Shown here piece by piece: positions 4,768-29,665 of a stretch of DNA of 64,000 bases; the first letter of the stretch is position 1, and each line of letters opens with the position of its first letter. Position numbers and translations under genes: made by a program. This stretch comes from Escherichia coli (GTDB lineage Bacteria > Pseudomonadota > Gammaproteobacteria > Enterobacterales > Enterobacteriaceae): NCBI RefSeq assembly GCF_044324785.1, contig NZ_CP172127.1; one strand, written 5' to 3'. The notes beneath the pieces are model-generated. The model made no database searches. It was not told where the DNA came from and saw nothing but the letters and a program-made list of their open reading frames with translations.

Positions 4768-5268
4768 ATGAATATGAAGACCATTGAAGATGTATTTAAT
4801 CACCTGCTTTCAGATACCTACAGCGCAGAAAAACAATTAACCCGGGCACTGGCAAAACTCGCAAGAGCAACATCAAATGAAAAATTAAGTCAGGCTTTTC
4901 ATGCGCACCTCGAGGAAACTCATGGACAGATTGAACGTATTGATCAAGTTGTGGAATCCGAATCGAACCTGAAAATTAAGCGCATGAAATGTGTGGCAAT
5001 GGAAGGTCTCATTGAAGAAGCTAATGAGGTCATCGAAAGCACCGAGAAAAACGAAGTGCGTGATGCCGCACTGATTGCCGCTGCACAGAAAGTCGAGCAC
5101 TATGAGATCGCCAGTTACGGGACATTAGCGACGCTGGCTGAACAATTAGGTTACCGTAAAGCAGCGAAGCTTCTGAAAGAAACTCTTGAAGAAGAAAAGG
5201 CCACCGACATCAAACTGACTGATCTGGCCCTTAATAACGTAAATAAGAAAGCCGAAAATAAAGCCTGA
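4768..5268 (+). CDS. yciF: Ferritin-like (DUF892) stress protein YciF
   Basis: Start placed at MNMKTIEDVF (ATG 4768) inside the longer track ORF; 166 aa matches YciF. Confidence 0.85.
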   Translation: MNMKTIEDVFNHLLSDTYSAEKQLTRALAKLARATSNEKLSQAFHAHLEETHGQIERIDQVVESESNLKIKRMKCVAMEGLIEEANEVIESTEKNEVRDAALIAAAQKVEHYEIASYGTLATLAEQLGYRKAAKLLKETLEEEKATDIKLTDLALNNVNKKAENKA

Positions 5269-5313
5269 AATATGAACTTTAACTTTTAGTCATTTTATAA
5301 ATAGGACATTTTC

Positions 5314-5820
5314 ATGAATCGTATTGAACATTATCATGACTGGTTACGTGACGCCCACGCAATGGAAAAGCAAGCCGAATCTATGCTTGAATCCATGGCT
5401 AGTCGTATAGATAATTATCCTGAACTACGCGCTCGTATTGAACAACATCTTAGTGAAACCAAAAACCAGATTGTTCAACTGGAAACTATTCTTGATCGTA
5501 ATGACATTTCACGTTCAGTCATTAAAGATTCCATGAGTAAAATGGCTGCGCTTGGGCAGTCAATCGGTGGTATATTCCCTTCTGATGAAATAGTCAAAGG
5601 CTCTATTAGCGGATATGTCTTCGAGCAATTTGAAATCGCCTGTTACACCTCACTATTAGCAACAGCAAAAAATGCCGGTGATACAGCTTCAATTCCAACC
5701 ATCGAAGCGATTTTAAATGAGGAAAAAGAAATGGCCGACTGGCTGATTCAGCATATTCCGCAAACAACTGAGAAATTTTTAATTCGCTCTGAAACTGATG
5801 GCGTAGAAGCGAAGAAATAA
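5314..5820 (+). CDS. yciE: Ferritin-like (DUF892) stress protein YciE
   Basis: 168-aa ORF MNRIEHYHDWLRDAHAMEKQ…; paralog of and adjacent to yciF. Confidence 0.85.
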   Translation: MNRIEHYHDWLRDAHAMEKQAESMLESMASRIDNYPELRARIEQHLSETKNQIVQLETILDRNDISRSVIKDSMSKMAALGQSIGGIFPSDEIVKGSISGYVFEQFEIACYTSLLATAKNAGDTASIPTIEAILNEEKEMADWLIQHIPQTTEKFLIRSETDGVEAKK

Positions 5821-27083: not shown

Positions 27084-28097
27084 TCATTCTGCAGACAACA
27101 TCAAGCGCAGCCGACCACCGGTTCCCCATATTTGGCATTGCCAGGCATCGCATCGCTGGCTCAATTGATTCAAATAAGCGTTACCTAAAGTGCCTAACGG
27201 AACACCATTACTGATTTGCACCTGGTGTTCGCCGGTATTTAACGTCGCATTCAGCCCCGCAGAAACCAGAATGAGATTTTTCAGTTCGCGATGATAATAG
27301 CCAACTAATAGCGGAAACTGCCCCGGCAGATTGGCCTGACGGAGTAAATGGTTTACCTGCTTCAATAACGCGCCCAACTCTGGCAACCGTTGATTTTGGT
27401 GTGCAAGCTGTTCCTGTAATAATCCGTTAAACAATGCGCGTAATAACAAGGCAGCAAGTACGCCATTATGTCCAGCTCGGGTGACATCAAGGCAATAAAA
27501 TGCCAGATCGTTTTCCGAAAGTGCGGCAATATCAAGCACCAGGCCGGGTTTGTCCGCGGCAACCAATTGACGATAATTAACCCGGCAATGGGAAATCACC
27601 TGCTGAACCGGCGGTTGCAATTCCTGTAATAATTTCGCCGCTGCGGCAGGGTTATCAACCATTGCATCCCAGTCGCGAAAAAGCCTCTCCTCTTCCTCAA
27701 CGCGGGAATTAAACATGCTGGGATAGAGACAGGCAAAAACCATCTCGCGCAAGCGATTCAGATCTTTAACTGGTTTCAGCAAAACATCTTCAACGCCCAG
27801 ACGTAACGCTTTGGCAATATCTGCCATATTTTCAGTGGCAGATATCACCAGAACCGGTGTCTGGTCACCTCTGTTACGTATATGCTCCAGCAATTTAAGC
27901 CCGTTCATTCGTGGCATCGCGATATCACATATCATCAGGTCTGGAGTGAAACCTCCCAGCAACTCAAGGGCATCCACCCCATCAGCCGCCAGTACCGTTG
28001 TCGCTCCCAATGAGGAAAACCACGAATCCAGAAGCGAGCGAAATACCTGCTCATCTTCAACAATGAGAATCTGTTTTCCGACCAATGGCTGCGTCAT
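27084..28097 (-). CDS. rssB: Response regulator RssB (RpoS proteolysis adaptor)
   Basis: 337 aa; receiver domain MTQPLVGKQILIVEDEQVFR… with phospho-acceptor Asp context; recognised as RssB/Hnr. Confidence 0.95.
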   Translation of the reverse strand: MTQPLVGKQILIVEDEQVFRSLLDSWFSSLGATTVLAADGVDALELLGGFTPDLMICDIAMPRMNGLKLLEHIRNRGDQTPVLVISATENMADIAKALRLGVEDVLLKPVKDLNRLREMVFACLYPSMFNSRVEEEERLFRDWDAMVDNPAAAAKLLQELQPPVQQVISHCRVNYRQLVAADKPGLVLDIAALSENDLAFYCLDVTRAGHNGVLAALLLRALFNGLLQEQLAHQNQRLPELGALLKQVNHLLRQANLPGQFPLLVGYYHRELKNLILVSAGLNATLNTGEHQVQISNGVPLGTLGNAYLNQLSQRCDAWQCQIWGTGGRLRLMLSAE

Positions 28098-28188
28098 GTT
28101 CTCTCCCCTGACTGGCTTTACTCAATAGTGGCATGCTATTGCCACCTGCGCCTGTCAGAATTAACTTAAGTGTAGATAAAAATTCTGG

Positions 28189-29094
28189 TCAAATGTTGGT
28201 GCGTACCAACGGCAAAAGTTCGTCCATTTTCTTTTCCACTGCCAGCTGCCCAGCCGCAATGGCAGCGTGCGCGCGATGGAAATCAAGCGTAGATATTTGC
28301 GGGCAAACAGGTTGAATCAGAATATCGGGCGGATCACCTGCCATGCGGTTCCTTTTAAGGCGGTTCTCCAGCACCTGGATAGAAGTGGTCATAATCTCTG
28401 TTGCCGTTGGCGCTGTCACCGCCCGACGTGTCGTTATGCTGCCCAACCTTTCTTTCAGACGCGCATGCCACGGCAGAGAATCACCATTCTCGCTATTTTC
28501 TTCACTGACATTAAAGGAGAGCAGATCTTGTTGCATCAAATGAGCATCGTGCTGCAGGTCGACCGCTATCACAATATCAGCACCCAATGCACGCGTGAGC
28601 GAAATAGGAATTGGGTTAACTACAGCGCCATCAACCAGCCAATAGCCGTTATGCGCAACGGGTGCCATTAGTCCTGGAATACTGCATGATGCACGAATAG
28701 CAAGATGGAGATCGCCTTCAGTAAACCATAATTCGCGCCCAGTACTTAAATTGGTGGCAACAGCCGCGAAGCGACGGGAACAATTTTCGATCTCTGTTTC
28801 CGGCATTATTTCGCGATATTGATTGAAGACACGCTCGCCGCGCAGTAACCCACCGCGCTGCCAGGAGAGATCCATCAGGCGTAAAACATCCCAATAACTG
28901 AAAGAGGTTACCCAATCTTCCAGCGCAGATAATCGATCGCATGCATAGGCAGCGCCCACCAGCGAACCAATTGAACATCCTGCAACGATATCAATTTCAA
29001 TACCCACTTTTTTTAGCGCATTAATAACGCCAATATGCGACCAACCTCTCGCCGCGCCAGATCCCAGCGCCAGCCCTATTTTTATCTTTCTCAT
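28189..29094 (-). CDS. rssA: Patatin-like phospholipase RssA
   Basis: 301 aa; GSGAARG oxyanion motif and GCSIGS lipase serine motif. Confidence 0.9.
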   Translation of the reverse strand: MRKIKIGLALGSGAARGWSHIGVINALKKVGIEIDIVAGCSIGSLVGAAYACDRLSALEDWVTSFSYWDVLRLMDLSWQRGGLLRGERVFNQYREIMPETEIENCSRRFAAVATNLSTGRELWFTEGDLHLAIRASCSIPGLMAPVAHNGYWLVDGAVVNPIPISLTRALGADIVIAVDLQHDAHLMQQDLLSFNVSEENSENGDSLPWHARLKERLGSITTRRAVTAPTATEIMTTSIQVLENRLKRNRMAGDPPDILIQPVCPQISTLDFHRAHAAIAAGQLAVEKKMDELLPLVRTNI

Positions 29095-29206
29095 TATTCC
29101 CGCAAGATTCCCCTGGAATGCAATCGTAGCAACATCGCTACTGCTCGGTTAACATAGTGCTACTCAGGCGGTTAATACGCCGTTATTGTTTCCAGGGAGA
29201 TTATTT

Positions 29207-29665
29207 GTGTCTCAGCTTTGTCCCTGTGGTAGTGCTGTCGAGTATAGCCTATGTTGCCACCCTTATGTGTCTGGTGAAAAGGTTGCACCTGATCCAGAAC
29301 ATCTCATGCGTTCGCGTTACTGCGCTTTTGTGATGCAAGACGCAGATTATTTAATAAAGACCTGGCATCCATCTTGTGGAGCGGCGGCGTTACGTGCCGA
29401 ATTGATTGCCGGATTTGCGCATACTGAATGGTTGGGATTGACCGTATTTGAACATTGTTGGCAGGACGGCGACAATATCGGTTTTGTCAGTTTTGTTGCG
29501 CGATTTACCGAAGGTGGCAAAACAGGTGCAATCATTGAACGTTCGCGATTTTTGAAAGAAAACGGTCAATGGTACTATATTGACGGTACACGTCCGCAGT
29601 TTGGCCGCAACGATCCCTGCCCTTGTGGTTCAGGTAAAAAATTTAAAAAGTGCTGCGGCCAATAA
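29207..29665 (+). CDS. ychJ: SEC-C-motif protein YchJ (UPF0225)
   Basis: Start placed at GTG 29207 ([13 protein letters not shown]…); CPCGS motifs at both termini; 152 aa. Confidence 0.85.

What the first reader, a model, noticed from the sequence alone, without database searches (positions are those of the whole stretch)
29207..29665. YchJ carries near-identical Cys-Pro-Cys-Gly motifs at both termini
The protein begins [20 protein letters not shown] and ends [17 protein letters not shown]. These are two SEC-C-like zinc-knuckle motifs bracketing a central domain, an arrangement suggesting metal-dependent binding of a partner (SecA-type SEC-C motifs bind SecB or ribosomes). Function is unknown, as far as I know.
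Basis: seen in the sequence. Interest (0 to 1): 0.25.

Follow-up and report, generated by a model that had tools for sequence, protein, structure and literature searches.

The report
Known E. coli YchJ, two zinc knuckles
This is the ordinary, well-annotated E. coli gene ychJ. Its two cysteine metal-binding motifs are real and strongly conserved, but they were described in 2020, and a 2026 Salmonella study assigned the protein a function as a peroxide-sensing repressor of the neighbouring rssB gene.

Summary
Window 29207-29665 (+) is E. coli ychJ: GTG start, 152 aa, same coordinates as the RefSeq CDS.

- **Motifs.** It carries [13 protein letters not shown] (C5, C7, C16, C17) and [13 protein letters not shown] (C138, C140, C149, C150) around an NTF2-like domain.
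- **Family hits.** Pfam gives SEC-C twice plus YchJ_M-like. An AlphaFold model superposes on the solved Salmonella YchJ at 0.7 Å.
- **Conservation.** The eight motif cysteines are 99-100% conserved in 134 diverse homologues (the last is Cys or His). The three other cysteines are 1-14% conserved.
- **Chance.** Excluded: 3 of 2,000,000 shuffles give two motifs.

None of this is new. Cranford-Smith et al. (2020) described both metal-binding domains and their Zn/Fe content. Wang et al. (2026) solved the structure and reported a ROS-sensing repressor of rssB acting through C149/C150.

Three things were added here:
- The motifs are not equivalent. The N-terminal one is in all 80 sampled loci; the SecA-type C-terminal one is in only 18.
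- rssB synteny is confined to Enterobacterales.
- The rssAB P1 promoter lies inside ychJ codons 9-14.

The SecB/ribosome idea remains untested. Interest is low.

The parts
29207..29665 (+). ychJ coding sequence (GTG start, 152 codons plus stop)
   Evidence: ORF and translation. Identical CDS in RefSeq. NCBIfam NF002449 equivalog scores 293 bits against a cut-off of 141.
29194..29199 (+). Shine-Dalgarno AGGGAG, 7 nt before the GTG
   Evidence: Read from the sequence. The start position agrees with the aligned N-termini of homologues.
29219..29257 (+). N-terminal knuckle [13 protein letters not shown] (C5, C7, C16, C17)
   Evidence: All four Cys are 100% conserved in 134 homologues. The motif is present in 80 of 80 loci seeded on the central domain, with a spacer of about 7 to 30 residues. 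It coordinates Zn in the Salmonella crystal structure.
29291..29587 (+). Central NTF2-like domain (residues 29-127, Pfam YchJ_M-like)
   Evidence: PF17775 scores 108 bits. AF2 model has pLDDT 96.5. Foldseek matches 9VXG at rmsd 0.7 Å, then 2I9W and 2JQ5, then limonene epoxide hydrolase and ketosteroid isomerase folds.
29606..29659 (+). C-terminal SecA-type metal-binding domain (residues 134-151; ligands C138, C140, C149, C150)
   Evidence: Best Pfam SEC-C stretch is 134-151. It is 16/19 identical to the E. coli SecA MBD in 1TM6/1SX0. C138, C140 and C149 are 99-100% conserved; C150 is Cys 78% and His 21%; K145 and K147 are 100%.
29241..29249 (-). Sigma-S-type -10 element GGCTATACT of the rssAB P1 promoter, antisense to ychJ codons 12-15; P1 TSS at about 29233
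   Evidence: The published P1 TSS is 139 nt upstream of the rssA ATG, and the rssA and ychJ TSSs are 71 nt apart. Mapped onto the sequence. GAGTATAGC[C/T]TATGTTG is invariant in 10 Enterobacteriaceae, with excess synonymous conservation.
28189..29094 (-). rssA (patatin-like phospholipase), divergent neighbour and first gene of the rssAB operon
27084..28097 (-). rssB (RpoS adaptor), the reported regulatory target of YchJ
   Evidence: The target claim comes from PMC13377102.
28161..28218 (-). rssB P2 promoter region: TSS about 28161, -10 TCTACACTTAA at 28176-28166, and an imperfect palindrome GTTGGTACGCACCAAC at 28210-28195 (-49 to -34)
   Evidence: P2 is 64 bp upstream of the rssB ATG. Sequence. 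The region is 90% identical to Salmonella. The palindrome is only a candidate for the published operator, whose sequence I could not obtain.

Best explanation
This is the known gene ychJ (UPF0225 / YchJ family). The 152-aa protein has three parts.

1. An N-terminal Cys4 knuckle (C5, C7, C16, C17). It is a structural zinc site packed onto the core and is universal in the family.
2. An NTF2-like alpha+beta cone (residues 29-127).
3. A C-terminal SecA-type metal-binding domain (C138, C140, C149, C150, plus K144, K145, K147, K148). It binds Zn or Fe and is a lineage-restricted add-on.

Most likely mode of action in E. coli is inferred by orthology to Salmonella (77% identity over the 130 solved residues, same synteny). 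Peroxide oxidises the C-terminal cysteines. This probably releases the bound metal, although the published model treats these cysteines as free thiols. A C149/C150 disulfide-linked dimer forms, and its lysine cluster together with R112 and R114 binds the promoter of the adjacent rssB gene. RssB falls and RpoS is stabilised.

Shown here: identity, domain make-up, motif conservation and fold. Shown in the literature: metal content (E. coli); Zn in the N-terminal site, DNA binding and phenotypes (Salmonella). Inferred: transfer of the function to E. coli, and metal release as the redox step.
For: - Identity: RefSeq CDS and synteny galU-rssB-rssA/ychJ-purU; Pfam and NCBIfam hits above their cut-offs.
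- Fold: AF2 model at pLDDT 96.5, including 90-95 for the C-terminal tail. It superposes on Salmonella YchJ 9VXG at 0.7 Å and TM 0.97.
- Conservation: eight motif Cys at 99-100% against 1-14% for the other three Cys.
- SecA similarity: the C-terminal tail is 16/19 identical to the SecA MBD.
- Metal: 1.30 Zn per YchJ plus iron; the protein is yellow and aggregates on EDTA dialysis.
- Function in Salmonella: in the ychJ deletion strain, RssB rises about 10-fold and RpoS, KatE and SodC fall under H2O2; deleting rssB suppresses this. H2O2 enhances EMSA binding; ChIP-qPCR and a plasmid reporter agree. The C149S/C150S and Lys/Arg mutants lose function.
- E. coli compatibility: every residue implicated (R112, R114, R134, K144, K145, K147, K148, C149, C150) is present in the E. 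coli protein. The rssB-proximal promoter region is 90% identical between the two species.
Against: - Nothing has been tested in E. coli. No oxidative-stress phenotype was found in the E. coli papers read; the phenotypes seen there are biofilm and secretion.
- The reported DNA affinities are weak (KD 8-64 µM by EMSA). The DNA contacts are a lysine-rich tail that could bind DNA non-specifically.
- The dimer and the DNA complex are models (AF2, docking, MD), not structures.
- The paper treats the C-terminal cysteines as free thiols in a flexible loop. Against that, the tail is a canonical SecA MBD, the protein carries more than 1 Zn, and position 150 is His in 21% of homologues. His fits a metal ligand, not a disulfide.
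- R112 and R114 are only about 50% conserved, while the neighbouring E111 and S113 are 98-100%.
- 58 of 80 sampled homologues lack the C-terminal tail entirely. rssB adjacency exists only in Enterobacterales, so this cannot be the ancestral function of the family.
- The rssAB P1 promoter lies inside ychJ codons. A whole-ORF deletion may therefore change rssB expression in cis.
Confidence: 0.6

Rival explanations
1. Sec-pathway accessory. The C-terminal SecA-type domain docks YchJ onto SecB and/or the ribosome, where it competes with or assists SecA. The N-terminal knuckle and NTF2 domain carry an unknown activity.
For: - The tail is 16/19 identical to the SecA MBD, which binds SecB in 1OZB.
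- K145 and K147 are invariant.
- Cranford-Smith et al. note that the SecB-contact residues are conserved in the C-terminal MBD.
- The MBD of the paralogous protein YecA/AscA is reported to bind SecB and ribosomes, in a preprint.
- Deleting ychJ raised secreted hEGF by 28%.
Against: - No binding experiment exists for YchJ.
- The 2026 Salmonella paper never mentions SecB or ribosomes (0 occurrences), so the idea is untested rather than disproved.
- Cyanobacterial homologues keep the tail (L017, L072), although cyanobacteria are generally held to lack SecB (my background knowledge).
- Betaproteobacteria, which have SecB, mostly lack the tail.
- The secretion effect is small and could be an indirect RpoS effect.
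Confidence: 0.2
2. The conserved core function lies in the NTF2-like pocket together with the N-terminal zinc knuckle, as small-molecule binding or catalysis. The C-terminal tail, and any rssB regulation, is a late Enterobacterales-specific add-on.
For: - The N-terminal motif is in 80 of 80 loci and the C-terminal tail in only 18.
- The short form is a solved stand-alone protein (2JQ5, 128 aa) and has its own NCBIfam models of 129 and 150 aa.
- Invariant or near-invariant core residues are L33, M34, R35, S36, R37, E111, S113, F115, W122 and Y124.
- The nearest non-family folds are enzymes and ligand binders: limonene epoxide hydrolase and ketosteroid isomerase.
- The family occurs in Deinococcus, Streptomyces, cyanobacteria and Chloroflexi, which lack RpoS and RssB (background knowledge).
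Against: - No ligand or activity is known.
- No conserved gene neighbour was found outside Enterobacterales to suggest a pathway.
- I could not inspect model coordinates to confirm that the invariant residues line a cavity.
- NTF2-like domains can also be pure scaffolds.
Confidence: 0.2
3. Chance or annotation artefact: a cysteine-rich ORF that happens to show the pattern twice.
For: The loose pattern C.C.{8}C[CH] also occurs twice elsewhere in the window's six-frame translation.
Against: - Those two matches are out of frame with any real ORF and lack the CPCGS core.
- Only 3 of 2,000,000 composition-preserving shuffles give two motifs.
- The cysteines are invariant across the family.
- Structures are solved.
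Confidence: 0.01

Closest known systems
YchJ / UPF0225 family (Pfam PF17775 + PF02810; NCBIfam NF002449; Salmonella YchJ PDB 9VXG/9L6B)
   Same: Same gene. It is 77% identical to the solved Salmonella protein over 130 residues. It has the same three-part architecture, the same eight cysteines, and the same rssB-rssA/ychJ-purU synteny.
   Different: Nothing structural differs. The E. coli orthologue itself has no published functional test beyond metal content.
SecA C-terminal metal-binding domain (PDB 1SX0, 1TM6, 1OZB)
   Same: The C-terminal 19 residues are 16/19 identical. They share the C-x-C-x8-C-[C/H] ligands, the conserved Ser and aromatic residue, and the lysines.
   Different: Here the domain is fused to an NTF2-like protein, not to an ATPase. 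The last ligand is Cys instead of His. Binding to SecB or the ribosome has not been shown for YchJ.
YecA/AscA (UPF0149), the other E. coli protein carrying a SecA-like MBD
   Same: It carries an almost identical C-terminal MBD (77% identity over 22 residues) and co-purifies with Zn and iron.
   Different: It has a different N-terminal domain and a single MBD. It is reported as a chaperone that binds SecB and ribosomes.
Short-form family members (R. palustris RPA3114, PDB 2JQ5; NCBIfam PRK04233)
   Same: They have the N-terminal knuckle plus the NTF2-like domain.
   Different: They have no C-terminal MBD. This form made up 62 of the 80 sampled loci (58 with a detectable spacer of 14 or fewer residues, 4 with long inserts).
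Thiol- and zinc-thiolate-based peroxide sensors (OxyR; Hsp33 and RsrA as zinc-release switches)
   Same: Oxidation of cysteines produces a disulfide-dependent change of activity (claimed for YchJ).
   Different: The fold is unrelated. Metal release from YchJ on oxidation is my inference and has not been shown. YchJ is reported to act independently of OxyR.

Membership tests
YchJ / UPF0225 family | Central YchJ_M-like (NTF2-like) domain above Pfam's gathering score | tested here: met
   PF17775 scores 108.2 bits against a cut-off of 22.7, covering residues 29-127 and profile positions 1-99 of 99.
YchJ / UPF0225 family | NCBIfam equivalog model above its cut-off | tested here: met
   NF002449 scores 293.3 against 141. 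NF002486 'YchJ family protein' scores 123.6 against 120.
YchJ / UPF0225 family | N-terminal C-x-C...C-C knuckle directly before the LMRSRY helix | tested here: met
   C5, C7, C16 and C17 are 100% conserved in 134 homologues and present in 80 of 80 loci.
YchJ / UPF0225 family | Fold matches solved family members | tested here: met
   AF2 model against 9VXG_A: rmsd 0.7 Å, TM 0.97. It also matches 2JQ5 and 2I9W.
SEC-C motif / SecA-like metal-binding domain (PF02810) | Pfam SEC-C hit above the gathering score | tested here: met
   63.1 bits against 20.4, in two stretches; the best is residues 134-151.
SEC-C motif / SecA-like metal-binding domain (PF02810) | Ligand spacing C-x-C-x8-C-[C/H] with conserved Ser and aromatic residue | tested here: met
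   Both motifs fit, with S9/Y13 and S142/F146. Cranford-Smith et al. noted the same.
SEC-C motif / SecA-like metal-binding domain (PF02810) | Basic residues that contact SecB | tested here: inconclusive
   The C-terminal motif has K144, K145, K147 and K148 (K145 and K147 are 100% conserved). The N-terminal motif has none (AVEYSL). The literature says the N-terminal MBD lacks the SecB-binding residues.
SEC-C motif / SecA-like metal-binding domain (PF02810) | Binds Zn or Fe | not testable with these tools
   From the literature: 1.30 Zn per protein plus iron, and Zn in the N-terminal site of the crystal structure.
SEC-C motif / SecA-like metal-binding domain (PF02810) | Binds SecB or the ribosome | not testable with these tools
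   No experiment on YchJ turned up in the papers searched.
Redox-sensing rssB repressor (Salmonella YchJ, PMC13377102) | Residues required in Salmonella: C149/C150, K144/K145/K147/K148, R112/R114 | tested here: met
   All are present in the E. coli protein. Family-wide, C149 is 100%, C150 is Cys 78% and His 21%, and R112 and R114 are about 50%.
Redox-sensing rssB repressor (Salmonella YchJ, PMC13377102) | Adjacent rssB target gene | tested here: met
   rssB-rssA lies divergent from ychJ in the window. The same holds in 16 Enterobacterales loci and in none of the others.
Redox-sensing rssB repressor (Salmonella YchJ, PMC13377102) | 24-bp palindromic operator at -35 to -57 of the rssB promoter | tested here: inconclusive
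   The operator sequence is not in the text I could read. No 24-mer with at least 16 self-complementary positions lies in either promoter region. A 16-bp palindrome sits at -49 to -34 of P2 and is degenerate in Salmonella.
Redox-sensing rssB repressor (Salmonella YchJ, PMC13377102) | H2O2-dependent dimerisation, DNA binding and rssB repression | not testable with these tools
   Experimental. Reported for Salmonella only.

The most novel reading that the evidence does not exclude
The two knuckles have different origins and roles. The N-terminal one is the ancestral structural zinc site of a widespread NTF2-like family whose core function is still unknown. The SecA-type C-terminal one is a later add-on. 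In Enterobacterales it works as a metal-thiolate redox switch, losing Zn or Fe on oxidation, rather than as free thiols. Separately, ychJ and rssAB are coupled in cis, because the sigma-S-dependent rssAB P1 promoter is embedded in the codons of the N-terminal knuckle. Part of the reported 'repression of rssB by YchJ' could therefore reflect promoter overlap or the deletion design.
Probability: 0.3. Interest if true: 0.35.

Novelty: already known. Interest (0 to 1): 0.1.

Why it matters
As a discovery it does not matter. The motifs, the metal binding, the structure and a function are already published.

The residual value is as a check on the 2026 model. Family-wide data point to metal ligation at the C-terminal site. 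That site is absent from most family members. The ychJ coding region overlaps the rssAB P1 promoter. All three points bear on how RpoS stability is linked to oxidative stress in enteric bacteria, and on how ychJ mutants should be built.

Tried and rejected
- **Alternative TTG start at 29186.** Rejected on the homologue N-termini and the RBS.
- **The published 24-bp operator.** Its sequence is not in the main text or methods, and no supplements are held. Inverted-repeat and 24-mer self-complementarity scans of rssB-to-ychJ in E. coli and Salmonella found nothing convincing in the promoter regions. The best Salmonella hit lies inside rssA and is not conserved.
- **Conserved neighbours outside Enterobacterales.** All-against-all clustering of flanking ORFs gave only clade-specific neighbours in Comamonadaceae, plus spurious high-GC ORFs.
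- **The top 150 representative hits as an architecture census.** Rejected as biased, because full-length scoring favours two-motif proteins. I replaced it with a scan seeded on the central domain.
- **Two other pattern matches in the window (40106+, 7479-).** Both are out of frame and are chance matches.
- **AF2 model coordinates.** I could not inspect them, so ligand geometry and pocket lining were not checked.

Full report
**Observation**

The window is an E. coli chromosome segment ordered galU-rssB-rssA / ychJ-purU-tyrTV-narIJH. The ORF at 29207-29665 (+) starts with GTG, 7 nt after an AGGGAG Shine-Dalgarno. RefSeq annotates the same coordinates as 'ychJ: YchJ family protein' in a 99.9% identical genome. 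The region is present in 5423 of 5426 complete E. coli genomes.

Both motifs are there: [13 protein letters not shown] at residues 5-17 and [13 protein letters not shown] at residues 138-150. Shuffling YchJ's own residues gave two such motifs in 3 of 2,000,000 trials. The only other pattern matches in the window are out of frame. 'Near-identical' applies only to the CPCGS...aromatic...CC skeleton, which is 7 of 13 positions.

**What it is**

- Pfam gives SEC-C (63 bits, two stretches) plus YchJ_M-like, an NTF2-like domain (108 bits).
- NCBIfam gives the equivalog NF002449 at 293 bits against a cut-off of 141.
- PDB sequence search finds Salmonella YchJ (9VXG, 9L6B), the structural-genomics entries 2JQ5 and 2I9W, and the SecA metal-binding-domain peptides.
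- An AlphaFold2 model built on 111 homologues has pLDDT 96.5, with 90-95 over the C-terminal tail. It superposes on 9VXG at 0.7 Å. Beyond the family, the nearest folds are NTF2-like enzymes.
- The C-terminal 19 residues are 16/19 identical to E. coli SecA's metal-binding domain (E 2.8e-8). The N-terminal motif resembles it only weakly (E 0.22).

I aligned 134 full-length representatives at 39-70% identity, drawn from a 1.84-billion-protein library. C5, C7, C16, C17, C138 and C149 are 100% conserved and C140 is 99%. Position 150 is Cys in 78% and His in 21%. YchJ's three other cysteines (C39, C57, C84) are 14%, 4% and 1% conserved. The motif cysteines are therefore under strong selection. The Cys/His alternation at position 150 is what a metal ligand would show.

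**The two motifs are not equivalent**

The top-scoring hits are biased towards two-motif proteins. I therefore seeded a scan of about 100,000 species genomes with the central domain only.

- All 80 loci returned have the N-terminal C-x-C...C-C motif. Its spacer ranges from about 7 to about 30 residues.
- Only 18 have the C-terminal domain. These are Enterobacterales, two cyanobacteria, a Shewanella and a Nitrosomonas.
- The rest stop right after the NTF2-like domain. These include most Betaproteobacteria, Xanthomonadales, Deinococcus, Streptomyces and an Anaerolineales genome. 2JQ5 and the short NCBIfam models of 129 and 150 aa have the same form.
- rssB-(rssA)-ychJ-purU synteny is found only in the 16 Enterobacterales loci. 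No conserved neighbour appears elsewhere.

**What is already published**

- Cranford-Smith et al. (bioRxiv 613315; JBC 2020) explicitly describe both motifs in E. coli YchJ. They cover the conserved Ser and aromatic residue and the lack of SecB-contact residues in the N-terminal copy. They report 1.30 Zn per protein plus iron, and they speculate that the protein binds SecB or ribosomes. Later papers repeat that speculation.
- Wang et al. (Nat Commun 2026, PMC13377102) solved the Salmonella structure, with Zn in the N-terminal C4 site. They report that YchJ is a ROS-sensing repressor of rssB.
  - Deleting ychJ raises RssB about 10-fold and lowers RpoS, KatE and SodC under H2O2, and deleting rssB suppresses this.
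  - H2O2 induces a reversible disulfide dimer that needs C149/C150.
  - DNA binding needs K144-K148 and R112/R114.

'Function unknown' is therefore out of date, and the finding is not novel.

**Most likely mechanism and its weak points**

By orthology, the E. coli protein most likely acts as in Salmonella. It is 77% identical over the 130 solved residues. Every implicated residue is present. The synteny is the same, and the rssB-proximal promoter is 90% identical.

The caveats are these:
- Nothing has been tested in E. coli.
- The EMSA KD values are 8-64 µM, and binding runs through a lysine tail.
- The dimer-DNA complex is a computational model.
- The paper treats the C-terminal cysteines as free thiols. 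Yet the tail is a canonical SecA metal-binding domain, the protein carries more than 1 Zn, and position 150 is often His. I infer that the redox step, if real, is oxidation of a metal-thiolate site with metal release.
- R112 and R114 are only about 50% conserved, while E111 and S113 are 98-100%.
- Most family members lack the tail, and most lack rssB as a neighbour. The ancestral function must therefore lie in the knuckle plus the NTF2 core.

**A cis complication noticed on the way**

The published rssAB P1 start site is 139 nt upstream of the rssA ATG. It is also 71 nt from the ychJ start site. This maps to window position about 29233 on the minus strand, 27 nt inside ychJ.

The sequence GGCTATACT at 29249-29241 (minus strand) is a sigma-S-type -10 element. 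It is antisense to ychJ codons 12-15, inside the N-terminal knuckle.

GAGTATAGC[C/T]TATGTTG is invariant in 10 Enterobacteriaceae. Synonymous-codon identity is 0.84 for codons 5-21 against 0.57 for codons 29-152. For four-fold sites the figures are 0.85 against 0.46. The p-value from that call is inflated by shared ancestry.

A whole-ORF ychJ deletion therefore removes or alters P1. The plasmid reporter and the complementation in the 2026 paper argue for a trans effect, but this caveat deserves a control.

**The operator**

I could not obtain the sequence of the 24-bp palindrome. Scans found no strong palindrome in either promoter region. A 16-bp imperfect palindrome, GTTGGTACGCACCAAC, lies at -49 to -34 of P2 in E. 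coli. It is degenerate in Salmonella, and a match of this size is expected by chance.

**Verdict**

This is a real, strongly conserved feature of a known gene, and it is already described in the literature. The interpretation as two SEC-C-type metal knuckles is right. The SecB/ribosome partner idea is untested. The only published function is redox-dependent repression of the neighbouring rssB. Novelty: already known. Interest: low.

Noticed in passing
window 29233-29249 (-), inside ychJ codons 9-15: The sigma-S-dependent rssAB P1 promoter lies inside the ychJ coding sequence, antisense to the N-terminal knuckle codons. Its -10 element is GGCTATACT and its TSS is at about 29233. The ychJ TSS maps to about 29162, so the divergent transcripts overlap by about 71 nt. 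Synonymous sites in codons 5-21 are unusually conserved (0.84 against 0.57).
   Followed up: yes
window 29207; loci L002-L013, L019, L022, L030, L049, L083: The ychJ start codon is GTG or TTG, not ATG, in 15 of 16 other Enterobacterales loci examined as well as in this window. This suggests deliberately weak translation, or constraint from the overlapping rssA 5' UTR.
   Followed up: partly
window 29167-29184 (+): A small GC-rich hairpin, GGCGGTTAATACGCC, was flagged as terminator-like. It lies in the 45-nt ychJ 5' UTR just before the RBS, and on the other strand inside the rssA P1 5' UTR. The GGCG/CGCC stem is kept in Salmonella with a different loop.
   Followed up: no
window 28166-28176 (-) and 28195-28210: The rssB P2 promoter has a textbook sigma-S extended -10, TCTACACTTAA. 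A 16-bp palindrome, GTTGGTACGCACCAAC, sits at -49 to -34 and overlaps the last codons of rssA.
   Followed up: partly
L011 (Yersinia aldovae), about 5001-5350: The YchJ orthologue ends prematurely inside the C-terminal motif (…CPCGSAKK*). It loses the last two ligands, while its neighbours rssB, rssA and purU are intact. This is either natural decay of the C-terminal domain or a sequencing error.
   Followed up: no
Homologous-protein hits P0045, P0046, P0048, P0074, P0087: A few E. coli assemblies carry frameshifted ychJ variants. These have either an N-terminus read in another frame ([13 protein letters not shown]…) or an altered C-terminus (…[15 protein letters not shown]).
   Followed up: no
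loci L014, L015, L038, L059 (Comamonadaceae, Nitrosospira): In these loci the N-terminal knuckle carries a 20-30 residue low-complexity insert, rich in Ala, Gly, Lys and Pro, between the CPCG half and the CC half of the motif.
   Followed up: partly
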